Below are positions 4,101 to 60,009 of a stretch of DNA of 64,000 bases, piece after piece. This DNA is from Octopus vulgaris. Its lineage: Eukaryota. Numbering within the stretch: the first letter of the stretch is position 1; each line of letters opens with the position of its first letter. A program made the position numbers and the translations under genes. The notes under the pieces were generated by a model. The model saw nothing but the letters and a program-made list of their open reading frames with translations, was not told the origin of the DNA and did not search any database. The stretch covers positions 146,878,001 to 146,942,000 of the forward strand of contig OX597818.1 of NCBI GenBank assembly GCA_951406725.2, given 5' to 3'.

Positions 4101-4325
4101 AGCCGGCAACCAAGGGAGCAAGCCGGCAACCGAGGGAGCAAGCCGCCTTCTAGAAGGACCACAGCATGATTGACAATATATTTACTCTAACACACCTGCT
4201 TGAGCAAGCGAATGAGTACAAGCTGCGTCTTTGCGTTGCGTTTGTAGACTGTGAGAAGGCCTTCGACAGCATCGAAACGAATGCAGTGATGAACTCACTG
4301 CAGGGGCAAGGAGTCGAGGTGCAAC
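4101..4325 (+). pseudogene. RTE-clade reverse transcriptase fragment
   Basis: REQAAF*KDHSMIDNIFTL...LCVAFVDCEKAFDSIE...LQGQGVE (RT motifs Q.GF, F.D..KAFDS). A 20-bp tandem duplication sits at the 5' edge. Confidence 0.75.
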
Positions 4326-4339
4326 GCTTTCAATTCTTA

Positions 4340-5223
4340 TTTCATAACATTAAATCAAACCCAAAAGCCTTCTTTCATTACGCGAAAGAAACAGCCTCAG
4401 TACGCTGCAAGATAGGACCCCTCTTCCAAAAGGATGGCTCCCTCACAGATAGTCCAACTAAGATCAGTGAGATACTGAATGACCAGTTCAAACAAGTGAA
4501 CAAACCAGTGGACTTCTTTGCTGCCTCACCTATAACCAGCGAGGTAGTTATGATGGAATACATTAACATTAGTGAAGAAGATATACTACTAGCCATAGAT
4601 GAAGTGGACACAGACTCAACTGCTGGTTCTGATGGTTTCCCAGAAATCCTCCTCAAATTGTGTAAGCATGCCCTGGCAAAAGCCTTCCAGATTTTCTTCC
4701 AGAGCTTTCTTGCAAATGGCAAACTGCCAAGCATGCTGAAGGAGGGAATAATATGCCCAATCCATGAAGGGGAAAGCAGAGAAGATGCCAAAAGCTATAG
4801 GTCTGTCTCTCTGACTTCACACATCAGCAAAGTCATTGAACGGATAGTAGAGGGAAACTAATCGCATTTCCAGAATCAAATACTGTGTGTGATCTTGGAA
4901 TAGAAATGAGCAACAATACCTCATTTCACACACAAATCAAGAAAATGGCAGCAGTATCCAGAAGACTGGCCGGTTGGATTCTGAGAACCTTCCGGACAAG
5001 GTATCAAGAAACTATGATGACACTATGGAAGTCATTTATCCTCAGCCAACTGGACTACTGCTCTCAGCTATGGTCACCTTATACTACAAGGACGATAGCA
5101 GAGCTTGAAGCAGTCCAGCGACATTACACAAAGAAAATTGCATCTATGAAACAATTGAGTTACTGGGACAGGTTGAAAGAGCTGCGACTCTATTCCCTGG
5201 AACAAAGGTGGGAGAGGTATGCA

Positions 5224-5272
<49 letters not shown>

Positions 5273-5470
5273 AAGATACGGGAAGGACTGGTACCAAACT
5301 TTGGAATAAAGAGCTATACCAGACCACAACGATGTACTGCAATAGCTTGTGGTTTCAAGGGCCCACAGCTGTTTAACTGTCTGCCAAATCATCTGAGGAG
5401 CTTCCATGGAGTGGATGTAGATATTTTCAAACATGAACTTGACCTCTGGCTTGCCAAGATCCCAGAAAGC
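4340..5470 (+). pseudogene. CR1-group LINE ORF2 remnant with most of the RT core deleted
   Basis: NIKSNPKAFFHYAK..IGPL..SEILNDQF, AGSDGFP, YRSVSLTSHISKVIERIV, then a jump at ~4860-4885 to CDLGIEMS...LDYCSQLWSP...LEAVQR...RLKELRLYSLEQR. A (TA)n tract is inserted at ~5228-5270. Confidence 0.8.
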
Positions 5471-23657: not shown

Positions 23658-25354
23658 TTAAGTAAAGAGTCTGTGTTCATTGCGTATCCAAGAACTTGGA
23701 TCAGTAATGTGGTTTAGTCTTAATCAACGTGCTATTAGCAGGAGTCTCTTCTTGGTAACATTTGAGGTAGAAAAAACTCCAGCAATTGTGATGCAAACTA
23801 AATCCACTCAGTTTTTCAACCTCAGGCACCACAATACTGTGGCAGTAACAATAGTTATAAAAACAATGGTACATGTATCCAACATTGAAAATAAATTTAT
23901 TTTCAATACCAAGTTAGAGCAGACATTGTGCATCACTGTGAATGTATGGAAACAACTGGATGCAGAGTTTTGTAGTAAATAGAAGAGCAAAGGATGAAAT
24001 AACAATTCAATTGTACCACTTTGTCTTGACCTTTCTCAGGCCTTTGTTTACCTTTTTTTATTCAGAGTTTCCAATAATAATAACAACAAGCATCACAGTC
24101 TGTAACCCAAAGCACAATATAAGTATTCACACAGAAACACATGCATACATATACATACATGCACACACACACACAAGCTAGGTACAGTTTGTCTACCAAA
24201 TTCACTCATAATTCATTTTCTTGGAGCTATAGTGGAAGACATTTACCCAAGATGCTCCACAATGTTAATAAATTCAAAACCACGTGGTTGGTAATGAACT
24301 TTTAACCTCCCAGCCAGACTTTGGCCTAACTAACTTTACGAACTACACAGTGATACATACATACACACATATGAGAGAGAGGCAGACAGACAGAGAGATT
24401 AAAAGGTATTATATTAGATAAATTAATTTATAAATATACAGACATTTTTTACTGAATTGTGTAAAGCTTCAAATATTTCTAGATGTTATTACTTTTACAG
24501 CTTTGTTTAAAATTCTAAATCTCAAAGAATTTTCCAAATATTAGCTCATCTCAGGGTAATGAGTTATGATTCTGTTTTAAGAACTGAAATGGGTGAAAAT
24601 TAGGTTAAGAAATATTTTTCCGTACCTTTTAAGCATTTGCAGAATATAAAGCAAGTGTGATGACATTGACAATTTATAGGTAACATCTGCATTTCGTACC
24701 CACCATCAAATTCCTTTAATAATTTCAATAAGATTGATTCTCACCACAAATGTACTTATTTTCTCAGTACTTTTTTTTTTGTACTTTTCATTGTTTGGTC
24801 AAGAGGAAAATACAGTATTCATAACCTTTTGATATCTCTCAAATATTGGATGCGATTGATGTAACTTATGCTTAGTTTCAATGTGTGTAAGTCAGCAAGA
24901 AAATGTTGGCTGGTAAGGAAATTCCAGACAGTTGACATTTTGAATAGGTTGGATAAAGTGGTCCATGTAGTGCCTAAGCAGTGAGACACTAAGCAGGAAA
25001 GACATGAGGAAGAGAGAGAGAGAGAGAGAGAGGGAGAGGTTCTGAAAGTGGTCTTGGGTGGAGGAGGTTGTACACAATTAGATAAATTGTCAAAACAAAA
25101 CCTGTCATAATAGTGTTAGAACAGGTGAAGTGGTGACAACATTTCTATGGAGAGTTTATTCAAGTGTAACAGTCCTCATTTCAGCCACCGCTGAGGAAGA
25201 CTGGTTAGAGTTGGTCTCCTTCATTGTGGTCCTTTTTGGGGGCCTGAAATCTTTATCCTTTGACCATCAGTCCAGCATGCTATCGGCTCTAAAACTGTGG
25301 ATCCCATTAGAATAATTAATTATATAATATATATATATATACATATATATATAG

Positions 25355-28017
25355 AGAGATTAGTAGTTAGCGACTTCAGGATCAGAGCTAAATGGTTGCC
25401 CAGAAGAAGACCAGCTTGGAGGAGAAGGATCTGGAAGCTTAAAGATCCTGCAAATGGACAGAGATTTAGAGACGTACTACTCGAAGTTTTCGATGACATA
25501 GAAGGGGATATAGCTTCACATGTGGAAGAAAACTGGAGGTTTCTAAGGGACATTCTGCTGACAGCCACTGACCAGATCTGTGGATGGAGCAAAGTCCCAT
25601 CTCGACCCAGGGTAACGTGGTGGTGGAACAATGTGGTTGACAGGGCTATTAGACAGAAGAAACAGGGTTGGAGGGACTGGAAGAATGGAAGTAGCAGGGA
25701 ATTGTATCAGACTGCCAGAAGGGAAGCTAGGAGACAGGTTTATTTAGCCAGAGGGGAAGCAGATAAGAAAAAAAATTTGCCAATGTTCTGCGCCGTGAGG
25801 ACCAAAGACTTGAGGTATTTCGTGTTGCAAGACAGTGTGTGAGAGAGAATCATGATGTGGTAGGAGAGAAATGTGTCCACATGGATGATGGTTCACTTGC
25901 GCTAAATGAGGATACAAAGAGAGAAGTTTGGAGATGCCACTATGAAAGGTTGCTGAATAAAGAAAATGAATGGGATAAAGAGAGTCTGCAAAATGTCGAC
26001 CCAACAGAGGGACCAGCTATCTGAGTTGACAGTCCTTTGGTAGTTAAGGCAATTAGAAGCATGAAGACAGGGAAAGCCCCAGGCCCATCAGGAATTACTG
26101 CAGAGATGCTCAAAATATCTGGCAGTGTCGGCCATAGCCTAGTCACCCATATAGTTAACCAGGTGATACATGAAGGAGTCATACCCAATGACTGGTGTAG
26201 CAGCATAATAGTCAACTGCTACAAAGGTAAAGGTGACGCCCTAGATACAAATAATTACAGAGGCATCAAGCTGTTGGATCAGGTAATGAAGGTTACGGAG
26301 AGGGTCATAGCCCAACTGATTAGGGAGAGAGTCAACTTGGACAAGATGCAGTTTGGATTCGTGCCAGGGAAAAGCACCACTGATGCCATATTTCTGGTGA
26401 GACAGCTGCAGGAGAAATACCCAGCCAAAAATAAACCTCTGTACCTGGCTTTCGTTCACATGGAGAAAGCCTTTGACAGGGTCCCCCGATCCCTTATCTG
26501 GTGGTCAATGAGGAAACTAGGGATAGATGAATGGATAGTGAGAGCTGTACGAGCCATGTACAGGGACGCTGTTAGTAAGGTGAGGGTTGGCAACAAGTAC
26601 AGTGAAGAATTCCGGGTAGAGGTAGGGGTCCACCAAGATTCAGTCCTCAGCCCCCTCCTATTTATCATAGTCCTGCAAGCAATAACGGAGGAATTCAAGA
26701 CAGGCTGCCCCTGGGAGCTCCTCTATGCTGATGACCTTGCCCTAATTGCTGAGTCACTATCAGAACTGGAGAAGTTTCAGGTGTGGAAGCAAGGATTAGA
26801 ATCGAAGGGCCTAAGAGTCAACCTAGCTAAAACCAAAGTTCTAATAAGTAGGAAGGTAGACAAATCACAAACAGCCTCAGGTGGCCCTGCTCGATCTGTA
26901 GAAAAAGTGTAGGTAGAAACTCTATAAGATGCACCAAGTGTAAGCTATGGACACACAAGAGGTGCAGCAATGTCAAAGGAAGGCTAACTAGGAAAATAGT
27001 TTTTGTATGTGACAGATGCTCGGGAGTAATAAACACTGAAAATACGCCGAGACTATCTTCCGCCACATTCCAGGGAGAAAAACTAGAAGTAGTTGATAGC
27101 TTCCATTACCTAGGTGACCAAGTCAGCAGCGGGGGCAGGTGTGCTGAAAGTGTAACTGCTAGAGTAAGAATAGCCTGGGCAAAGTTCAGAGAGCTTTTAC
27201 CTCTGCTGATGACAAAAGGCCTCTCGCTGAGAGTAAAAGGCAGATTGTATGACGCATGTGTACGAACAGCTATGCTACATGGCAGTGAAACATGGGTCGT
27301 GACTGCTGAGGATATGCGTAAGCTTGCAAGAAATGAAGCCAGTATGCTCCGATGGATGTGTAATGTCAGTGTTCATACTTGACAGAGTGTAAGTTCTTTG
27401 AGAGAAAAGTTAGACCTAAGAAGCATCAGTTGTGGTGTGCAAGAGAGACGTTTGCGCTGGTATGGTCATGTGGTGAGAATGGATGAAGATAGTTGTGTGA
27501 AAAAGTGCCACACTCTAGCAGTTGAGGGAACCTGTGGAAGAGGTAGACCCAGGAAAACCTGGGACGAGGTGGTGAAGCACGACCTTCAAACTTTAGGTCT
27601 CACCGAGGAAATGACTAGAGACCGAGACCTATGGAAGAATGCTGCGCGTGAGAAGACCCGGCAGGACAAGTGAGGCTATAATCCCGTGGCCTACACCTGG
27701 GATGTAACCAGCCCATCTATGCATTCCTTTCCTTCTTGGGACACAAAACTCCACTTGTGAAGACCTGTTGAGGCAAGTGAAAATCAAAATCGTAACCTAT
27801 CAACATCAATGGAATTTGTAGTTCTGATACCAGTGCCGGTGGCACGTAAGAGAACCATCCGAACATGGCCGTAGCCAGCGCCGCCCGACTGGCCTCCGTA
27901 CTGGTGGCACGTAAAAAGCACCATCCGATCATGGCCGTCTGCCAGCCCCGTCTGGCACCTGTGCCAGTGGCACGTAAAAAGCAGCCACTACACTCATGGA
28001 GTGGTTGATGATGATGA
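25355..28017 (+). mobile_element. 5'-truncated RTE-clade LINE (disrupted ORF2 plus repetitive 3' UTR and (GAT)n tail)
   Basis: RT motifs KAPGPSG, NYRGIKLL, QFGFVPGKSTTDAIF, EKAFDRVPR, GVHQDSVLSPLLF, YADD (~26724), FHYLGD, LRWYGHV, GRGRPRKTW. Frameshifts near 25770 and 26875 and stops at ~26022 and ~27380. Confidence 0.95.
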
Positions 28018-28765
28018 TATAATATTGCGGTGATGGTCAAAATCTAAACTATATCTAGTTCTGATTAATCTGGTCTGATGAAGATTATACAATGTCAACA
28101 ACAACAATAGAATGGTTAGCTTGAGTAAACATTGATTTAACTCATTCATGTAAAGTACTTAAGATAGTAGAGAGCAGTAGATTCAATATTTTATATCTAA
28201 AATTTTAATCTGCAGAGAGAGGGGTGGGAGCAGGGGGGGGGTGGAAAGAAACAGACAATGAGCTAGGGAAACATCAAATTAACTTAAAGTTGATGGATAG
28301 TTTTGTTGGTTTACATAGTAACCAAGATTGCTTTTTCTCTCATAAGAATATATATATAGGTTTTCATTGGTTGCTTGCCGTATGCCAATACAAAACATTT
28401 GATCAGATCAGAATTAGCTTTGTTCAAGGAAAAGTTTAGCTTTTTTCTAACCATGTACTTTGGTTTATCTAGATTACTGTCAGAATTATCAGTTTATTCT
28501 AAAACATATGTCTAGAATGTAGGATAAAAATTTTGGTGAATAACCTTATCAGTCTGAACGATTGCCAGCCATGGCACCATGAATCTTCCTGGAGTTGAAC
28601 TGAACAATTTGAAGAATGGAAATTGAAAGCAATTTGATGAGTCCTCCCAGAGCAGCAACTATTGTTGGGTATGAGTGAGCATATGCAAACCTCTGTGGTT
28701 AGAGCTTATTGTCGAAAAGTTTGTGGAATGTTTTTGAGATGCTTTTTGCCAATAACCATTATTAT

Positions 28766-28962
28766 GGAGTAAAGATAATTTGCCAACATAACATGGCAGT
28801 CCTGGTTTAGGACGAATGCTCCTGTAAATTTAGCCCCAGGAGACATTGTCTCCAGTTGGCTATATGATACGATCCTAAACCAGGACTGCCCTGTTATGTT
28901 GGCAAGTTATCTTTACGCCAAAGTATTGCTGCTGAATATCTCACATAGTGAGATTTACAAAT
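28766..28962. mobile_element. Family X foldback insertion: 48-bp inverted arms + 42-bp tail, flanked by a 15-bp direct repeat
   Basis: Arms 28765-28812 and 28873-28920 (about 3 mismatches). aataaccattattat occurs at 28751-65 and 28963-77. Confidence 0.8.
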
Positions 28963-29217
28963 AATAACCATTATTATACTCAAATGGAGTTCAGTAAGAA
29001 TTTTGTTTTTATCTGTTTGCTATTTTTTAATATAATAAAGTAACAAATAGCTATTAAATTTAGATACATTTTGAGTATTCCATTTATTTAAATCTATTTA
29101 GATAGTCTTGTTGGCATTGTATCAAGAACAAATATATTTGCAATATACTGGAATAAAATGTTTGCCCTGTTTTGAAATATGTTTCTTTATTGGCTCTGCA
29201 AATTTTAAGCTATTACA

Positions 29218-29676: not shown

Positions 29677-30690
29677 CAGGATGTTCAGGCTAAATTTGAA
29701 AGTTTGCACAAAAGAAAAACACAATATTCCATCCAAAAATAAAAGTATTTTAGAAAATCAAGATATATCAACTAGATTATGGTTGGGAGATAAGTTAACA
29801 CAAACCAGACACCCTCAGCTCCCACCACAGCTTCAAGACAGCTCCTAAACCTAGTGCTAGCATTCCTTACTGTATCCTTTGGGAGATCTTTGAACACTTC
29901 CTTGATCTTAGCCACTAACTCAGCCTTGGTGTTACAGGTACAGTGGTTGGTGTCTTTTAGTAATCCATTATATTACAATTGAGGGAATTAGGAAGCCAGA
30001 AAATGGGTTTAGGAAAGTTATGGAAATTTTCTGACAACCACTTCTGACTCTTTCGGGAGATCTGGCAAGGAGCCTTGCAGCAAAAAATGGGTCTGGGAAA
30101 GTCATAGAAATTTTCTGACAACCACTTCTGACTCTTTCGGGAGATCTGGCAAGGAGCCTTGCAGCAAAAAATGGGTCTGGGAAAGTCATAGAAATTTTCT
30201 GACAACCACTTCTGACTCTTTCAGGAGATCTGGCAAGGAGCCTTGCAGCAACTAGCTTCTCCAGTCAGGATTTGATTGCAGTCTCCAACAGCTTCATGTA
30301 GCAGTCTGAAATGAGCCTAAGGGCCCTGTAAGGCAACATAATATCACCATCACTAGAAACACACCCAAATACCATAAGAATTTGGGGGAACTTGGTTTCA
30401 TGATGTCCATGTCATGTTTTACTGCCTTCACAGAGCACTGATCAGCAGTCACGATGTCGATATTTTGATGCCGAGCATGAATCAACATGATAGAAGTAAC
30501 TCTCTTTCAATATTCAGAGGGCTTCCAGTCCCCTATGTCAGCTGACTTTTTCCCAACTGCAACTTTAATCATTATATTCTTTAATGCGATGCCGTTAACT
30601 AATGCATCAAGCTGCTCCAGTACCTTGTCCGATATCCTGCCAGTAGAATTTAGTGAAAGGGGGAAAAACTGCACAGAAGCTAATTTCATA
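29677..30690 (-). pseudogene. maT/DD37D-like Tc1-mariner transposase fossil
   Basis: Minus strand APCQISRKSQKWLSENF..FWLPNSLNCNIMDY (cf. WPPNSPD.NPLDY), then KAELVAKIKEVFKDLPKDTVRNASTRFRSCLEAVVGAEG. A TIR-like ta|caggatgttcaggctaaatt sits at 29677. Confidence 0.7.
29999..30250. repeat. Three tandem 84-bp units
   Basis: The atggg..ggaaag unit anchors at 30003, 30087 and 30171. Units are near-identical. Confidence 0.95.
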
Positions 30691-34269: not shown

Positions 34270-35625
34270 TGAAATCAGAGAGAGCAAGCTATTGGATGTC
34301 TCCATGCTGCGCAGCTTCCATGGATCATTGCTAATGACTTGAACTGCAGTATTTGGACAATTGAGGGGCTGAGGGGATGATACAATGCCACAAACAGCAC
34401 GGAGGATCATCCATGCAATGACTGATCGAGGGTCACAATGGCACATCAAGATCGTCACCTTCATCATCAGCACTTGCAGGACTGATTCTGGAGGGCAACA
34501 GAATCAGCTAGGCAGATCATAGGGAGTCACCATAGAACTATTTGTACAGAGATGGCTCACTGCTAGCCGAAACCTTTCAATCTATCTTGCCAATGTCTGG
34601 CTAGGGGCCCCATCCTCACAGATTGTCATCGATGGGTATGTCTGCTGTGGGCTCAAAAACATCAGAACTGGTGACGTCAGCAATGGATGACTGTAGTCTT
34701 CTCTGACAAAAGTTGATATTGCATTTCTGTGGCAGATGGCAGAGATAGGGTTTGGAGAAGAAGAGGTGGACGTCATGCTGATGGCTGAGTGGTGGAGAGA
34801 GACTCATGGGGAGGACAGAGCATCATGGTAAGGGGCGGGATTGCACTCAACCAGAAACTTGGACCGGTGGTCTTCCAAAACAATGGTCAAGGCCAGGGCT
34901 ATGGAGTAACCACTGCTCGCAACATTGACCAAGTGTTGAGGCCTCACATAGTGCAATACTTTGCCCATCATTGGAATCATGTGTCCCAACACAACACCTG
35001 TGCCCATACTGCCAGGCTGACAACAGACTTCCTCCAACAGCACAACATCCAGACACTGCCATGCCCTGCCCTAAGTCCGGATTTGAACTCCATAGAGCAC
35101 CTGTGGGATGAAGGCTAAATGACATCTCTCCAAGGCTGACAACTGCAATATAATGTGAAATAATTCTTTTGGGGAATGGTGGATCTCAGAGCAGATGATG
35201 TAGCTATAAATAGAGGAGTTAAAAAACCCTTTGGATAGGAAAAGTTGAAGGTTGTCCATGGAATTCAAACCCACATCTCCTGTAAATACGACAGACTTTG
35301 CAGCATTAGCCTATATCAATCCTTCACTGTAAGTTTTAATATCCCCATGGCCTTCATCAATCGTTTGGGGGCATTCAATGTACATAAGATGCCTGGCGAT
35401 AATCAATGCTAACAGTGGTCACATGAGATATTGAATTCATCTCATTGGATCCAGGATATTCCGTCATCACATGACACCATGTGACGTCAAACATGTTTCA
35501 GGAAATGACGTTTTATCATTAGGAAAGAACGGTTTCTTAATTAGCACTCTTTAATCAAAGCTATGGCAGTCTGTTAATAAACCGTTTTCTATTTAGTATG
35601 TGTGTGATGTTTCTTTTGTGGTTCA

Positions 35626-38159: not shown

Positions 38160-38610
38160 TTTTTGCAACTATAACATGGTTATTCAACAAAGAACTACAT
38201 TACTACATTTTAACCCCAGGGAAATGTCTTTTCCAGTTGGTTAACAACACACTATGTTCCAATGTATAGTGAGTAAGGGAGTAAATCACTTCTCGCCAGC
38301 TTGGCAAAACCTTCGTCGGTACAGAACACTGCTAGAGATGGCAGTCACTCATCCCTACTCACAATATATAAACAGAGAAGTGGCAAACAGTCACTGATCT
38401 CATAAGGAGCAAAATAGCTTGCTCTAAAATCTCTAAATGAGATATGAGTGGTAATAATACTAGACAGTAATGTTTTTTCTTGTTCTATATTTTTGCAACT
38501 GTAAGATACCTGTTCAATAAAGAACACAGTTACAACATTTTAACTCCAGGAAAACGTCTTTTCCAGCTGGTTACTGATACTCAATCTAACACTGATATAT
38601 TGTGAGTAAT
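38160..38610. repeat. Older, degenerate family X copies (two direct, one short inverted piece)
   Basis: cattttaaccccagg..aaatgtcttttccagttggtt at ~38206 and ~38536. Hairpin head aaatctc-taaat-gagatat at ~38427. ccctactcacaatat at ~38353 is inverted. Confidence 0.55.
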
Positions 38611-41520: not shown

Positions 41521-44380
41521 ATTATAATTATTATTATTATTATTATTATTATTATCGTTATTATAGACGTTTCACAGTATACAATATTGTGAGGTTTTTG
41601 ATAGAAGATATTGTGTCTACCAGGGGTTTGTACTGTTTGTCAAGTCACAACAAGGACCTCAGACAGACACTACTTTACGCAATATGTGTGCAGTTCCAAG
41701 TAATGCTGACTTTTGCAATACATCTAGATTGTAGGGTATTTCTAATGTTTTCAGATGTTTTTTTTTTTTCAGATTGGGTGGTATTGAACCAATGCTCCGA
41801 CAACAATAGGGATAACCTTTATGTTTGACTCTCGTAGCTGCCACATCTTAGCAATCTCAATTCTCGGGTCTCCATATTTACCAACCTTTTCTCTTTCTTT
41901 CATGATATGTTGATCTCTTGGCACTGCTACGTCGATTATTAGGTACTCTGGTTTGTCCCTCCTAAAGGTTACTATATCTGGCCTTCGGTGTTCTTACACT
42001 TTGTCGGTCTGGAAATCCCAGACGATTTTTGCCTTCCCCTTTTTGTCCATTACCTTTTCCAGTGTATGTTGGTACTAAGCACCTATAACCTCATATCCAT
42101 ACTTATGGCATAGTAGCCAGTGGAAGTTTTGGGTTACTTTGTCATGTCTATGCTTGTACTCTTTCTCCGCAAGACTTTCACCAGCACTAACAATGTAAGT
42201 TACACTTTCAACCCTCTTCCCACACATTCTGCAGAGGTCCAGTGCACTTGCTTGGTATATGTTCTTTTTCACTGAGTTGGTATTCAATGCCTGGTCCTGG
42301 GCCGTGATGATTAGGCTTTCAGTATTCTTTTTTAGGTCACCCTTGTTGAGCCACCATGATGCTTCCTGGTCTTTTAATTTGCTGGTTTCACGGTGGAACT
42401 GACCATGTAATTCCATACAGAGTAGGGATTCTTCTCCCTTTGTTGGCTGTTCTTATTCAGAATTCATGAGCTCTCTCAAGTCCATTTTTGTTAACTCCTT
42501 CTGCACCATCAGCATACTCTAGCAGGTCTTCTTTGCTGTTTGCTAAATATTCTGCCATGTTTCTTCTTTCATTGTTGATGCACTCCCGTAAGCTAATCAG
42601 CCCCTGTCCACCCTTACCTCTCCTCATGTAGAGCTTGTGTACATTTGCCTAAGGGTGGAGGGCACCAAGCATTGTCATTGTATTTTGAGCAGTGTGATCA
42701 AGGTGATCAATCTCTGCTTGTGTCCATTTCAGGATGGGTGCATTATAGCGAACCACAGCAACCACCCTTATGTTGATGGCAGTCACAAGGTTCCTTGAGT
42801 TGATCTTCGATTTCAAGAGAAGTTTGAGGTGCTCAAAAGATGCAGTGGTGACCTTGTCTTTCATTTTTCTTTGCAAGATATTGTCCAGCTCCAGGATCTC
42901 AAGGTACTTGTACCCATCATCATCAGGGTCTTCCAATCTCTTTCTGTTTGGCAATTTTATGCCCCTACAATTTACTCTTTTTCCCCTGCTTCAAAGTTAT
43001 CAACACACATTTCAAGATACCGAATTCCATCCCTATATACTTGCTGCACATTTGCACAGTCTCAACCAGCCTCTCCATTTCAGGCTCTGTTTTTGCAAAC
43101 AGTTTCAAATCATCCATAAAGAGAAGGTAGTTGAGACAAGGTTCGTTCTTTCTCAGCTCATAGTGCACACTGATTTTATGTAGGACTACAGAAAATGGGA
43201 TCAAGGCTATAACAAATAACAGAGGTGAACAAGAGTCTCCTTGCAAGATACCTCTTTTGATTGTTACCTTGGCTAAGTGCTGGTTGTTACAGAAAAGTCA
43301 CATTTTCTAGGCATGCTGTTCTTAATCAGTGCACATGCATTCTCAGCTATTACACACATGTCCAGTATTTCCAAAATCCACAAATGCAGCAACATGCCAT
43401 AAGCCTTTTTGGAGCCTATCCAGGCCATGCATAAGTTTTTTTGGTACCGTTTACAGTTTTTCATTATAACCTTGTCTATCACAAGGTTATCCTTGGTGCC
43501 CTTGGATCCTTTTCGGCATCCCTTTTGCTCTACAGGCAGAAGATTGTTTTCTGCAAGGAACATATATATTTTCCCTGTGAGTGTACCTGTCAATACTTTC
43601 CATACGAGGTGAAGACAAGCAATGGGTCAGTAATTGCCAACCTCACTGCCATTTGACCAATCTTTCATTGACAATGTTGTTCTTCCTTCTACCATCCACT
43701 CCGGAACTGTACCGCTCTGTAGGCAATTGTCTAATTGCAATACAAATCTCTTGTGTATTGACCTAAACCACTTGAGCCAGTAGCCCTGAATTCTATCTGG
43801 TTCTACTGCTTTCCAGTTTGGTAGTTTTGATATCTGTGCAAAGACATCTTCCGTTGTTATGTGCACATGGTCCTGTCATGGAACATCCGTGTAATAGAGT
43901 TCAGATCTCGTGGAATGAATCCACTCAGCTCTGTGGTTCTGCGAAACTTCTTGCCCCCAGATTTTATTCCAAAATTGGCAGGTTTCTTCTGCTTCAGGAG
44001 GTGTATTATCTTCTGTGTTTCTTCCTAAGCCCTTAAAAACTGCCTCTCGTTGTTTGAGAATAACTGGTTTTGTTGGAACTGCAATATGCAGTCAGTGTAG
44101 CCCTGCACCTTGAATGTTTTAGCCCCCACACGTTGTTTTAGGGTTTTGATAACAGTTTTTGAACCCTTTCTTTTCTATTTGGTAACTTACATCAAGATAT
44201 GCCCTTGCACTTTCTTTTTCATTTTCCATTGCCCTTTTGACCACTCTTTTGTGTAACTCAGATCTTTACTTAAAGTTAGAATATCACCTTCATTTCTCCA
44301 TTTCCACCTTGGCTCCTTCTGTCCATCTACTTTCCTCTCTTTCTTTCCAACTAGTTCACCTTCTAAAATTGAAGGGGTAT
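41520..44380 (-). mobile_element. R4/Dong-clade non-LTR retrotransposon (RT, CCHC, RLE), 5'-truncated and disrupted
   Basis: Minus strand EPRWKWR..LSKDLS, PNWKAVEPDRIQGYW, EQKGCR..GTKDNL, QGDSCSPLLF, LLFMDDLKLFA, CRMCG..HRHDKV, RRPDIV..IIDVAVP..EKVGKY, LQKSALLGTAHILRKV. The 3' end runs into (TAA)n. Confidence 0.92.
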
Positions 44381-46955: not shown

Positions 46956-47209
46956 GCTTTGTTAAACAGGGCTATAACCAAAAGCATTTAAGCCATAATC
47001 ATCCCTTCTTTGTTTCTCAAGTAATATGACCAGGACCACCTGGATATATCTCCTTCCCTTTTTAAGATGATAAGGTATGATTTGAAGGAGAATTGGCTTC
47101 TATTTCCAGTAGGTGAAGCAATCCTCTAGAACAGGAATGTCAAACATACAGTCCAAAGGCTGTATCTTGCCTGTTCAATATCATATCTGACTCCCAGCTC
47201 AATTTTATA
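46956..47209 (+). repeat. Left arm of 254-bp inverted duplication
   Basis: Reverse complement of 49614-49867 with one mismatch seen. Confidence 0.95.
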
Positions 47210-49613: not shown

Positions 49614-49867
49614 TATAAAATTGAGCTGGGAGTCAGATATGATATTGAACAGGCAAGATACAGCCTTTGGACTGTATGTTTGACATTCCTGTTCTAGAGG
49701 ATTGCTTCACCTACTGGAAATAGAAGCCAATTCTCCTTCAAATCATACCTTATCATCTTAAAAAGGGAAGGAGATATATCCAGGTGGTCCTGGTCATATT
49801 ACTTGAGAAACAAAGAAGGGGTGATTATGGCTTAAATGCTTTTGGTTATAGCCCTGTTTAACAAAGC
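49614..49867 (-). repeat. Right arm of 254-bp inverted duplication
   Basis: See 46956-47209. Confidence 0.95.
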
Positions 49868-52784: not shown

Positions 52785-53180
52785 TCTTTATATATAAAAG
52801 TGAGGTTGTGTGCTGTCTATCTCCTATGATTTAGATTCCTAACTACTCCCACATTTTGCAGTGCAGTTTAACCAAAACCGGGTATCTTATAGTCGTGATT
52901 CATATCGAGCCCTTCTGGGTATTAGCGCGCGTCTACGATGAGACGACGATTTTAAAAAACATTTACCATCAATTTTTCCCATTTTTAATGCATTTTTGGC
53001 ATATATAAGGGAAGTAACTCTCTAAAAATTTATTATTAAATCTCAGAACGTAAAAAGCTACAGTAACACCCCACCCTTTGTGGTTAGCCATATTGAGATG
53101 GCTATTATACTTTACATCTCTAAAAATGCTTATATAGTTATTTCCCTTACAAACCCGAGCAACGCCGGGCGATACTGCTA

Positions 53181-53181
<1 letters not shown>
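52785..53181 (+). mobile_element. Non-autonomous Helitron
   Basis: 5' TC(tttatatataaaag), 3' GC hairpin cccgagcaacgccggg (53154-69), then CTAG. Inserted between A and T with no TSD. Confidence 0.88.
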
Positions 53182-53216
<35 letters not shown>

Positions 53217-56765: not shown

Positions 56766-57328
56766 TTGGGTTGTCTGGAAAGATTATACCGATTTATAAA
56801 GGAATGAAAAAGGTCAATAAATACTTGCCATTACATTTTAATCAGCCAAATATGAGCCATTTTGTTGCACAATGCGTCCCCATCTTTCCTTTAACTTGAA
56901 AATACCCTCTTCCCAGAACTGAGGTGGTTTCATGACAAAGAATTCATCAAGGTATCTTTTTATGTCATCCAAGGAATTGAAATTTTTACCATTAAGACTA
57001 TTCTGCAGAGACCTGAATAAGTGGAAATCTGAAGGAGCAATATCTTGTGAATATGGAGGGTGGGGGTAACACATCCCAGCCGAGCTGCAGCAATTTTTGT
57101 CTGGTTCCCAAAGCATCAAGTGCCGAAAATGAACTTTATCTTCCATTTTAAAGGGTTACGGAATTAACACAAGTTATAGGAACATAAACCTTCTTCCACG
57201 AAAAGATGGCTTAAACTATGCTCTAAATGGAGGTGTAGTTAAATCCTGTTTTATGGACTCAACCATGTTCTAAAATAAGTCGAAAGGTAAGCTACTATAA
57301 ATCATCACGAACTTTCCGGATAACCCAA
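56766..57328 (-). mobile_element. Complete 563-bp non-autonomous mariner (internal deletion)
   Basis: TA flanks, ~30-bp imperfect TIRs ttgggttgtctggaaag / ctttccggataacccaa. Retains MEDKVHFRHLMLWE and HPPYSQDIAPSDFHLFRSLQNSL..GIFKLKERW. Confidence 0.92.
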
Positions 57329-59281
57329 TATATACACACACACATATTCATGTACAGAACAGTATGTACAGTTTCTGTCTATCTACTCACTCACCAGTAG
57401 TTAGAAAATATCACATCCCTTGGATAGATGGCTACCAAACTGTTGTGAATTCTGTTGAAGAAGATTTGAGCATTGCATTTTAAAATTCATAAAATCACTT
57501 GTAAAACACTTTGTCTGTTCTCTGCTTACACTAGTTGGCTGAATCTCTTTTCAGTACCTTTACTGTAGCTGGATGACATATGTGAGTGAGTGTGGTGTGT
57601 TTGTGTTGAAGATGCCAAACAGATGCTTGATAATAAAGCAGTCCCTTTAACGTCTTAATGTCAGCTGCAATTCCTAGTTAATTATCTTGTTCTAATCACT
57701 TAAAAATGTAATCATGAGTAATTAGACGAGGTGAAGTGCTTTAAAAATTTAGACATTTGCATATTATTATTATTACTACTATTATTATTATTATTATTCT
57801 CAGAAGGGAGTTTTACATTTGGAAGCTGATTAAGAATGATTGATCTTTCTTGGGCTAAATTACATAAAAGGTTGAAATGCTTTGAACAGGAAAAGCTTCA
57901 TGGCATTAGCATAAGTCAACAGTCACCCTTTCAAAATTGCTTCATTTCCTTTTAAAAAAGATAAATATTGAGTATTGATGATATTTAAACAAAAATATGC
58001 AATGAAGGAATATTTCATTAAAGAATACAAAACTATTAGCAAATTAAATTTTCTTTTTTTATATATTAAAATTTCAGCTTGCTTCAAGATAGAGAACATT
58101 TATAGAAAATTTATATTAAAAAATTGAGACTTAAATATTGATTATTGTTATAATTATGGTTAAATTATTTTTTAATTATCTTGATTATTTTAACAAATTT
58201 TTTTTAAAATTTTTCTTTAAGATTTAGTGTAAACAGAATTTTTAACAGCTTCAGAGCATTGATCATTATAATTTAGTATCAGTGTGAAGTTAATTGAAAT
58301 TTTAGCATGCTAACTTAATGTATGACAGTATTTTACTTTAATTAGTTTGAGTTACCAGTTCAAATTTCACCAGAGTCAAACTTGTCTGTTATCCTCAGCA
58401 AATTGGTTGATTTGTTAGTTTTAGATAGATTGCCTCTTGGAATTTCTTTCAAAACTCTAAGACTTATGACAATAGCTAGAGGAGTGAATTAACAATAGCT
58501 ATCACTGAACAATAAGATCATATGATGGAGACAGAGATGCAGGAATATATGTCAGTGCCTCACTTGTATATCTGTCTGTCCATTCAAAGATTATGATGGT
58601 GAAGGAAATTTTACATTGTAAGAATAATTCAAATCTCTCGTCAACCTTTGCATTCTGTCTTCCAGAGTGGATAAAAATAAAGTACCAATGCACAGCAGTA
58701 GATAATCTGAAGAATGTCAGACTGGTAACTTTATGGCATTTGTTCTAGGTCTTTGTGTGATCTGAGTTCAAATCTCACTAAGACCTACTTGAGTGATAGA
58801 TCTAATCCATCATCCTGCTTAACACCACCTCCTGACACTTTGGGTGCCATTATTAAATTCAAGCCATGACTCCAGTTTGAGAACATCTTGCTCTCTCCCA
58901 CTACATTTGGAGGTCCTATAAAGGGTCATAAGTACTCCCTTCTCTCCTAGCTAAAAGTTTTTAAAACATGTCTTTTCTCTAAACTAAAAATCTCTTTTAC
59001 AAATATTAGCAAGATGCTCAGTCAAGTAATATGCTCTAAACTGACAATTGTTTCCAAGCACAGGCCTGGGATTTGGAGAAGAGGAATAGTTTCAATCCCA
59101 ATACTTGACTGGTATTTTATTTTACCTACAAAGAAAAGATAAAGGTAAAATCGATCTGAGTAAGATTCAAACCCAGAATATAAAATCAAAACAAATATCA
59201 CAAGACATACAGCAAATTTTTCTTTCAAAACAGATTGTTTGATTGTGTATATTTGCTGGACTTCAGCAAAACAAAAGCATA

Positions 59282-59925
59282 ACAACGTAAGGTGTACTAG
59301 CCATCTGAATGTGGCTAGCCACTGGGGGTGGGGTGTTACTGATGCTTTTAGCCCCAGGCGATCAACGTCACCAGATGGACTTTAGACACAACATTCCAGT
59401 GCCCTTGTGTTATTTGCAAAGGGAGGTCATCCTCCCTCGAAAACCTAAGTGCTACATACGGACTATAGTTTCAAGGTAATTGCCTCTCGTCAACGCATGG
59501 TAAACACTGGTTTTCGATGAAGGAGACCCTCTGCAAATAATAATAAAACTGTCTGAAAGCATTAATGCTTTCAGACAGTTTTTCTAAATCAGTGACTGTG
59601 GTTGCTGTGAAAAACGTTAAATATTATTTGCAGAGGGTCTCCTTCATCGAAAACCGGTATTTACCATGCGTTGACGAGAGGCAATTACCTTGAAACTATA
59701 GTCTGTATGTAGCACTTAGGTTTTCGAGGGAGGATGACCTCCCTTTGCAAATAACAAAAGGGCACTGGAATGTTGTGTCTAAAGTCCATCTGGTGACGTT
59801 GATCGCCTGGGGCTAAAAGCATCAGTAACACCCCACCCCCAGTGGCTAGCCACATTCAGATGGCTAGTACACCTTACGTTGTCGAGTGGTACTGTTTATA
59901 TCTCGTTCAGAGATTTATTAATCCT
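59282..59925. mobile_element. Family X giant foldback: 261-bp inverted arms, nested 38-bp palindrome, 43-bp tail
   Basis: Arms 59282-59542 and 59622-59882 (about 4 mismatches). aaaagcataa occurs at 59273-82 and 59926-35. Confidence 0.92.
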
Positions 59926-60009
59926 AAAAGCATAATAATCCAACAGGAAACCTCATAATTTATGAGTAATTTATAATTTACATAGTTTGTACAAGCATGG
60001 CTCTGCTGG

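What the first reader, a model, noticed from the sequence alone, without database searches (positions are those of the whole stretch)
28751..28977. A second, diverged insertion with the same architecture defines a foldback-forming family (family X)
Seen: 48-bp inverted arms, a 42-bp unpaired tail with hairpin atctcac-ata-gtgagat, and a 15-bp direct repeat aataaccattattat on both sides. It shares ordered landmarks with the 59.3 kb element: gtaa.g start, subterminal hairpin (tgcca..tggca here, tagcca..tggcta there), tttagccccagg and ccag.tgg, and a tail agt..tgctg..atatctc..gagattta. Two independent insertions with the same truncated-inverted-arm + ~43 bp tail + variable-length TSD layout point to a mechanism rather than chance. 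Known parallel: Penelope-like elements form inverted partial pLTRs with a short terminal tail. Alternatives are a Crypton- or Helentron-associated element. I cannot assign it from sequence alone, and it may be undescribed.
Basis: partly seen in the sequence, partly recalled or inferred. Interest (0 to 1): 0.8.

Follow-up and report, generated by a model that had tools for sequence, protein, structure and literature searches.

The report
Penelope-type inverted insertion with tail
This 197-base hairpin-shaped insertion is real and belongs to a highly repeated family; it is most likely an ordinary stump of a Penelope-like jumping gene, whose known signature is a mirror-image piece, a short one-sided tail and a duplicated target site.

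Summary
Confirmed: an exact 15-bp direct repeat (28751-65/28963-77) around a 197-nt insert with 47-nt inverted arms (44 of 47 paired) and a 43-nt tail. It is not a symmetric foldback. It is a 109-nt inverted piece joined head-to-head, over 2 shared bases, to a 90-nt direct piece that carries the tail. Contigs of four runs show a high-copy family that continues inward, with variable junctions, and this insertion shared by a genome about 3-5% diverged. The 59.3-kb element is a distant sister (52 of 101 columns identical), has the same layout, and carries a type I hammerhead motif in both arms. A third, unreported copy (53030-53116, 11-bp direct repeat) has the inverted piece joined straight to half a tail. 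Inverted 5'-truncated copy, 30-40-nt tail, variable target duplication and hammerhead are the published marks of Penelope-like element (PLE) insertions; two internal priming sites explain the tail in a lizard PLE. Helentron, Crypton and MITE readings fail on tested features. Not shown: a link to an RT/GIY-YIG gene, since no genome is held. Verdict: new member of a known kind, low interest.

The parts
28751..28765 (+). Left copy of 15-bp direct repeat (inferred target-site duplication; 13 of 15 A/T)
28766..28874 (-). Element A, inverted 5'-truncated segment (109 nt), starting at the arm/tail boundary; the family continues inward beyond 28874 in other copies
   Evidence: loose ends behind 28874 in 4 of 4 runs
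28873..28919 (+). Element A, direct 5'-truncated segment (47 nt, the right arm); shares 2 bases (28873-28874) with the inverted segment at the junction
28920..28962 (+). Element A, one-sided tail (43 nt) with hairpin at 28938-28954; the family tail runs on to about 28967 or a few bases more, overlapping the start of the right direct repeat at 4 of 5 bases
28963..28977 (+). Right copy of 15-bp direct repeat
59273..59282 (+). Element B, left copy of 10-bp direct repeat (right copy 59926-59935)
59283..59925 (+). Element B: inverted segment, 38-bp perfect central palindrome (about 59545-59582), direct segment, 43-44-nt tail; arms identical at 257 of 261
59665..59709 (+). Type I hammerhead motif in B, direct segment: stem I 6 bp, stem II 4 bp, palindromic stem III; two conserved C positions read T
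59455..59499 (-). Same hammerhead motif in the inverted segment of B
53019..53029 (+). Element C, left copy of 11-bp direct repeat (right copy 53117-53127)
53030..53116 (.). It splits a host hairpin (arms 53006-31 and 53124-49)
   Evidence: (blastn E=8.5e-13 to B)

Best explanation
The element is two truncated pieces of the same repeat end, joined head-to-head between a 15-bp direct repeat with a 43-base tail on one side, and it is most likely the stump of a Penelope-like retrotransposon inserted by target-primed reverse transcription. Shown: the anatomy, the high copy number, variable inner junctions, a boundary fixed to within about 2 nt in 3 of 3 window copies, A/T-rich direct repeats of 10, 11 and 15 bp, and a hammerhead motif in sister element B. 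Inferred, by analogy with the Anolis PLE studied in vitro (PMC11167929): a GIY-YIG/RT protein nicks both strands of an A/T-rich site 10-15 bp apart. One nick primes cDNA at the tail end of the RNA; the other primes about 43 nt further in, at the arm/tail boundary. Both cDNAs stop early and are joined over a few shared bases, which gives inverted piece + direct piece + tail + target duplication. If the first cDNA stops inside the tail the product is element C; if it passes the second site the product has inverted arms (A, B), which would need a second RNA or displacement of one cDNA. Whether the template is the end of an autonomous PLE or a small non-coding hammerhead RNA that borrows PLE protein is open.
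For: Anatomy and chance controls. Summed contig depth over 28778-28804 is 8,669 / 158,693 / 406,704 / 194,678 against 14.7 / 8.9 / 8.7 / 7.6 on the left flank, from 231-2,078 laid contigs per run (the tool warns that this is not a copy number). Loose ends: before 28765/28768 the consensus begins with the reverse-complemented tail and then decays (agreement 0.42-0.69), which fits a mix of ends with and without tail; behind 28874 the family goes on inward in 4 of 4 runs; behind 28967 contigs leave into A/T-rich sequence of low agreement (0.52-0.56) in 3 of 4 runs among the rows shown. Of 11 joints listed, 4 skip from the inverted piece to the tail at different places; 3 of these land in the distal tail like element C and 1 keeps about 10 nt of direct arm (tables 5 and 5c). 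A hammerhead descriptor hit only B's two arms in the window; 60 shuffled windows gave a mean of 0.05 relaxed and 0 strict hits. Its form (helix I 6 bp, helix II 4 bp, short palindromic helix III) is the metazoan type I form in PMC4209133. Two hairpins keep all 25 of 25 pair cells across A, B and C, with one double change each. By eye, the inward loose-end consensus of family A is collinear with B at 59398-59430. Literature: inverted 5'-truncated copy plus 30-40-bp tail (PMC8557442); 8-10-bp TSDs, 31-bp tail, palindromes at the inverted junction (PMC3846280); both strands cut and extended, A/T-rich target, tail = stretch between two RT start sites (PMC11167929).
Against: No RT or GIY-YIG gene could be tied to the family: no genome is held, and 0 of 150 window reading frames hit a GIY-YIG profile. 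No hammerhead lies within element A itself; it is cut short of the place where B has one, so the hammerhead argument rests on a modest A-B homology (blastn E=0.034, nhmmer E=0.84; unrelated tiles score up to 152 against 159 for B). B's hammerhead has T at two positions given as C in PMC4209133, its monomer fold is not the minimum-energy fold (z=+0.85), and Rfam lists no hammerhead among 86 matches up to E=5. The tail (43-48 nt) is a little longer than the published 30-40. No empty site was seen in 4 of 4 runs laid, so the target duplication is inferred. Each joint rests on one contig per run, and at least 1 of the 6 opposite-strand joints (28767/28918) is only a switch between the mirror arms. 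The covariation score was reached by 88 of 500 shuffles.
Confidence: 0.85

Rival explanations
1. Twin priming by an ordinary LINE (RTE, CR1/L2 or Dong/R4 type) acting on a SINE-like RNA produced the inversion and the variable target duplication.
For: LINE RT fragments lie in the window, one about 2 kb upstream (Pfam RVT_1 at 4154-4858, 26025-26909, 42968-43297). Variable 10-15-bp duplications fit LINE chemistry. Element C has non-overlapping segments.
Against: LINE twin priming (recalled, not read here) gives non-overlapping segments with a variable second priming site; here A and B overlap by 47 and 261 nt, and the second site is fixed to about 2 nt in 3 of 3 copies. No poly(A) or simple-repeat 3' end. 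Hammerhead in B.
Confidence: 0.05
2. A Helentron-associated non-autonomous element (HINE/DINE-1 type) with subterminal inverted repeats and a 3' hairpin, moved by rolling-circle transposition.
For: HINE subTIRs lie 2-4 nt from the 5' end and 38-60 bp from the 3' end, with a palindrome 8-35 bp from the 3' end (PMC4067079), which resembles element A taken alone.
Against: HINE subTIRs are 12-15 bp; here the arms are 47, 261 and 0 nt. HINEs make no target duplication and are flanked by T runs (PMC4067079); here three different direct repeats of 10, 11 and 15 bp flank the copies.
Confidence: 0.04
3. A MITE or foldback DNA transposon with terminal inverted repeats.
For: Long inverted arms, no coding capacity, high copy number.
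Against: The inverted repeat is not terminal: it stops 43 nt short on one side. Duplication length varies (10, 11, 15). Element C has no second arm. Inner junctions vary between copies.
Confidence: 0.04
4. A tyrosine-recombinase element (Crypton, or DIRS with an extended right inverted repeat).
For: DIRS elements have non-identical inverted repeats with a one-sided extension (recalled).
Against: Crypton terminal direct repeats are similar across all copies (PMC8969392); the three repeats here are unrelated host-like A/T-rich sequences of different length. DIRS make no such duplications (recalled). No recombinase hit among 150 frames.
Confidence: 0.02

Closest known systems
Endonuclease-positive Penelope-like element insertion units (Penelope/Poseidon, Neptune, Nematis; Pen2a_Av and Pen3a_Av of Adineta vaga; PMC3846280, PMC8557442; passages seen)
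   Same: Inverted 5'-truncated copy next to a direct copy, one-sided tail, short variable TSD, palindrome at the inverted junction (38 bp in B), hammerhead motif near the 3' end.
   Different: Only 90-360 nt of the end are present in each segment; no ORF seen; tail 43-48 nt against 30-40; TSD up to 15 bp; clade cannot be assigned.
PAc (Poseidon_Ac) of Anolis carolinensis (PMC11167929; parts 1-2 of 4 of the text read)
   Same: Two fixed end points about a tail length apart, A/T-rich targets, hairpins beside the end points, hammerhead upstream.
   Different: In PAc the ORF starts at hammerhead stem II and runs through the tail; B has stops in all three sense frames. No sequence comparison with PAc was made.
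Non-LTR retrozymes (PMC7229834, passages; bioRxiv 10.64898/2026.07.22.740005, part 1 of 5)
   Same: Non-coding, a few hundred bases, type I hammerhead of canonical helix lengths, low GC; proposed to be non-autonomous PLE derivatives.
   Different: Retrozymes are defined by head-to-tail tandem repeats; A, B and C are head-to-head single insertions with a tail.
HINE/DINE-1 (PMC4067079, passages)
   Same: Inverted repeat 38-60 bp from the 3' end plus a 3' hairpin.
   Different: Short fixed subTIRs, no TSD, T-rich flanks.

Membership tests
Penelope-like elements (EN+) | Inverted 5'-truncated copy joined head-to-head to a direct copy | tested here: met
   A and B; C has the inverted piece plus part of the tail
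Penelope-like elements (EN+) | One-sided 30-40-nt tail | tested here: met
   43 nt (A), 43-44 nt (B); family tail to about 48 nt; slightly longer than published
Penelope-like elements (EN+) | Short target-site duplication of variable length at A/T-rich sites | tested here: met
   15, 10 and 11 bp; 13/15, 8/10, 9/11 A/T; no empty site seen, so duplication is inferred
Penelope-like elements (EN+) | Type I hammerhead motif in the pLTR | tested here: inconclusive
   Present in both arms of B with two C-to-T departures; A is truncated before that position; no Rfam hit
Penelope-like elements (EN+) | Linked ORF with PLE-type RT and GIY-YIG endonuclease | not testable with these tools
   No genome held; none among 150 window frames; pattern scans of collections gave one chance hit
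Penelope-like elements (EN+) | Partial tandem (direct pLTR) arrangement | tested here: inconclusive
   Not in A, B or C; a 105-nt direct repeat 330 nt apart at 38160-38594 is weakly similar to A
Non-LTR retrozymes | Head-to-tail tandem monomers of 150-450 bp, each with a type I hammerhead | tested here: not met
   A, B and C are not tandem; other genomic copies could not be examined
Non-LTR retrozymes | Expressed as small circular RNA | not testable with these tools
   Only contigs were served
HINE/Helentron | No target-site duplication; T-rich flanks | tested here: not met
   Three different 10-15-bp direct repeats against PMC4067079
HINE/Helentron | Fixed 12-15-bp subterminal inverted repeats | tested here: not met
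   Arms of 47, 261 and 0 nt
MITE / TIR transposon | Terminal, symmetric inverted repeats and fixed TSD length | tested here: not met
   43-nt asymmetry; TSD 10, 11, 15
Crypton | Short terminal direct repeat similar in all copies | tested here: not met
   Three unrelated repeats against PMC8969392

The most novel reading that the evidence does not exclude
The family is not debris of an autonomous PLE but a dedicated protein-free hammerhead RNA of about 330-360 nt, a retrozyme that spreads as head-to-head single insertions instead of tandems and has reached many thousands of copies by borrowing PLE protein. Its spectrum of products, from inverted piece + half tail (element C and 3 joints) to fully overlapping arms, would then be a natural record of two-site priming at the two nicks and let the unsolved step of inverted-pLTR formation be read from genome data.
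Probability: 0.25. Interest if true: 0.45.

Novelty: new member of a known kind. Interest (0 to 1): 0.22.

Why it matters
As it stands it is a correctly classifiable repeat: a high-copy family that tools would easily mislabel as a MITE or an unknown foldback. Its use is as data. How PLEs make the inverted copy and the one-sided tail is only partly worked out (PMC11167929 leaves the later steps unvalidated; PMC3846280 proposed self-priming), and a family with very many short copies, some stopping inside the tail, allows the two-nick, two-start-site model to be tested by counting junctions. It would not surprise a PLE specialist.

Tried and rejected
Own genome: none held, so no copy census and no extension to an ORF. 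Rfam at E up to 5: 86 matches, all below gathering scores, none a ribozyme; miRNA-type hits on A and B only reflect the hairpins. Exact-pattern scans: metagenome contigs gave 1 locus, L001, a 20-base chance match beside an unrelated ORF; viral contigs 0 in 3 scans; prokaryote genomes 0. Pfam on 3 short frames of A and B: 1 weak hit below cut-off; Pfam on 150 frames of 68 aa or more that passed a complexity filter: RT, PHD and DDE fragments, no GIY-YIG. Expression: no RNA holder listed. Empty site: no joint skipping the insert in 4 runs laid of 24 listed; no second copy of C's host element in the window. Fold z-scores of the tails and of B's 3' end were not significant (-0.13 to -1.22); only A's inverted segment read as sense was (z=-2.93). 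A promoter/terminator scan of 53100-53200 was uninformative. Four short motifs were absent from the one supplementary file held for PMC8557442, a metadata sheet; its consensus-sequence file and the Zenodo library of PMC13282606 could not be seen, nor Dfam or Repbase. A paper search for Penelope + twin priming + inverted + GIY-YIG returned 0 papers; octopus + Penelope + hammerhead returned 5, of which 4 were listed, none describing such a family by title or start of abstract. An earlier count said 7 opposite-strand joints; the table lists 6.

Full report
Setting. The window is A/T-rich animal DNA full of microsatellites, SINE-like repeats and broken LINE and DDE frames. The common interspersed repeat in it resembles an octopus SINE as I recall it; this label comes from no call, and the run search gave only coded organism names. 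No whole genome is held.

The observation. A window-wide scan for the layout found this element (A), the 59.3-kb element (B) and one microsatellite-anchored hit, against 1 hit in 10 shuffled windows. The A-B relation is real but distant: 52 of 101 aligned columns, above 1000 of 1000 shuffles for the left segments, yet only E=0.034 by blastn and E=0.84 by nhmmer, and unrelated tiles come close to B's score (152 against 159). The tails alone are not convincingly alike window-wide. They are best called sister families.

What element A is made of. I laid 4 of the 24 listed runs (X3 and X11 of organism A, X4 of B, X17 of F; all contigs) on 28400-29200 at 80% likeness. Summed depth on the arm is about 600 to 47,000 times that of the flank; the tool warns that this is no copy number, but it shows a highly repeated family. 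In 4 of 4 runs the family sequence goes on inward past 28874, so the left part is a 109-nt inverted piece, and the right part (28873-28962) is a separate direct piece; they share 2 bases at the joint. Outside the left arm, loose ends begin with the mirrored tail and then lose agreement (0.42-0.69), as expected if some ends bear the tail and others do not; I could not count the two classes. The tail of the family runs to about 28967 or slightly beyond, matching the first bases of the right direct repeat at 4 of 5. Of 11 joints listed, 4 join the inverted piece to the tail at different places, 6 change strand (one is merely a switch between the mirror arms; others may be inner junctions of other copies) and 1 goes back; each rests on one contig per run. 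No joint shows an empty site. A contig of X17 bridges the right junction by 45 bases, and its flanks differ at 13 of about 395 and 14 of about 283 bases, so the insertion is older than the split of those two genomes; this fits the 3 differences between A's own arms.

The sisters. B has 261-nt arms with 4 differences, a 38-bp perfect palindrome at its centre, a 43-44-nt tail and a 10-bp direct repeat. A hammerhead descriptor hit B's two arms and nothing else in the window; shuffles gave 0 strict hits in 60. The motif has helix I of 6 bp, helix II of 4 bp and a palindromic helix III that pairs between two copies in a co-fold, the metazoan type I form said to work as a dimer (PMC4209133). Two positions that the paper gives as C read T, and Rfam does not call it, so activity is doubtful. 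The inverted piece starts within about 2 nt of the same position in A, B and C. Two hairpins in the shared region are kept with one double change each, which three sequences cannot make significant (88 of 500 shuffles).

Mechanism. Shown: two truncated copies of one end, head-to-head, with two fixed outer end points about 43 nt apart, variable inner end points, and variable A/T-rich direct repeats. Inferred: two nicks 10-15 bp apart each prime reverse transcription, one at the tail end and one at the arm/tail boundary; the short cDNAs are joined over shared bases. The orientation fits: the top-strand nick at the end of the left repeat would lay down antisense sequence starting at the boundary, which is what the left piece is. 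The Anolis PLE protein cuts and extends both strands, prefers A/T-rich DNA, is predicted to be a dimer, and starts at two sites whose spacing is the tail (PMC11167929). C and three joints look like early stops inside the tail. Overlapping arms need a second RNA or strand displacement; self-priming, proposed in PMC3846280, remains possible for B with its central palindrome.

Comparison with known systems. Inverted 5'-truncated copy, 30-40-bp tail and hammerhead are listed as PLE features in PMC8557442 (12 of 24 passages), with 8-10-bp TSDs and junction palindromes in PMC3846280 (12 of 13 passages) and the 34-37-bp repeat in PMC2377424 (passages). It works like a PLE insertion; membership lacks the one decisive test, the linked RT/GIY-YIG ORF. 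HINEs share the offset inverted repeat and 3' hairpin but make no target duplication (PMC4067079; passages). Cryptons carry the same short repeat in all copies (PMC8969392; passages). Retrozymes are tandem by definition (PMC7229834, passages; bioRxiv 10.64898/2026.07.22.740005, part 1 of 5, which argues they derive from PLEs). If the host is an octopus, PLEs are plentiful there: 6.83% of the O. vulgaris genome in 190 families, with an old expansion (PMC13282606; passages and one supplement row; also PMC8967140, passages). Those libraries, Dfam, Repbase and the figure supplements of the cited papers could not be searched, so the family may already have a name.

Earlier scan notes. Look-ups by sequence and by genome found nothing. 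Word look-ups found the same layout read as PLE insertions in other genomes; these are unchecked AI notes, and I took from them only the pointer to PMC3846280.

Verdict. A real feature, most likely a truncated Penelope-like insertion (0.85); new member of a known kind; interest 0.22.

Noticed in passing
window 53030-53116: Third insertion of the B family with an 11-bp direct repeat, made of an inverted piece joined to half a tail.
   Followed up: yes
window 53006-53181: The host of element C has a hairpin restored when C is removed, then a GC-rich hairpin and CTAG before a TA microsatellite, like a Helitron 3' end (seen by eye; label recalled).
   Followed up: partly
window 38160-38264 and 38490-38594: 105-nt direct repeat, 330 nt apart, 75% alike; each copy weakly resembles A's inverted piece (1 and 0 of 1000 shuffles, but unrelated tiles score nearly as high), with a degenerate hammerhead-like core on the minus strand near 38290-38320 seen by eye only. 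Possibly a distant tandem, retrozyme-like relative.
   Followed up: partly
window 46956-47209 and 49614-49867: 254-nt inverted pair, 99.6% identical, 2.4 kb apart, with no other copy in the window; recent inverted duplication or assembly artefact.
   Followed up: no
window 59545-59622: B's centre is a 38-bp perfect palindrome, and the inverted piece lacks about 39 nt that the direct piece has just beyond it.
   Followed up: partly
window 4154-5376, 25264-27673, 42075-43875, 34789-35118, 56838-57155: Broken LINE frames (Pfam RVT_1; one with a PHD finger), a DDE_3 fragment, and a mariner-like fragment recognised by eye.
   Followed up: no
window 29960-30264: Short tandem coding-like repeat of about 28 codons, three copies.
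   Followed up: no
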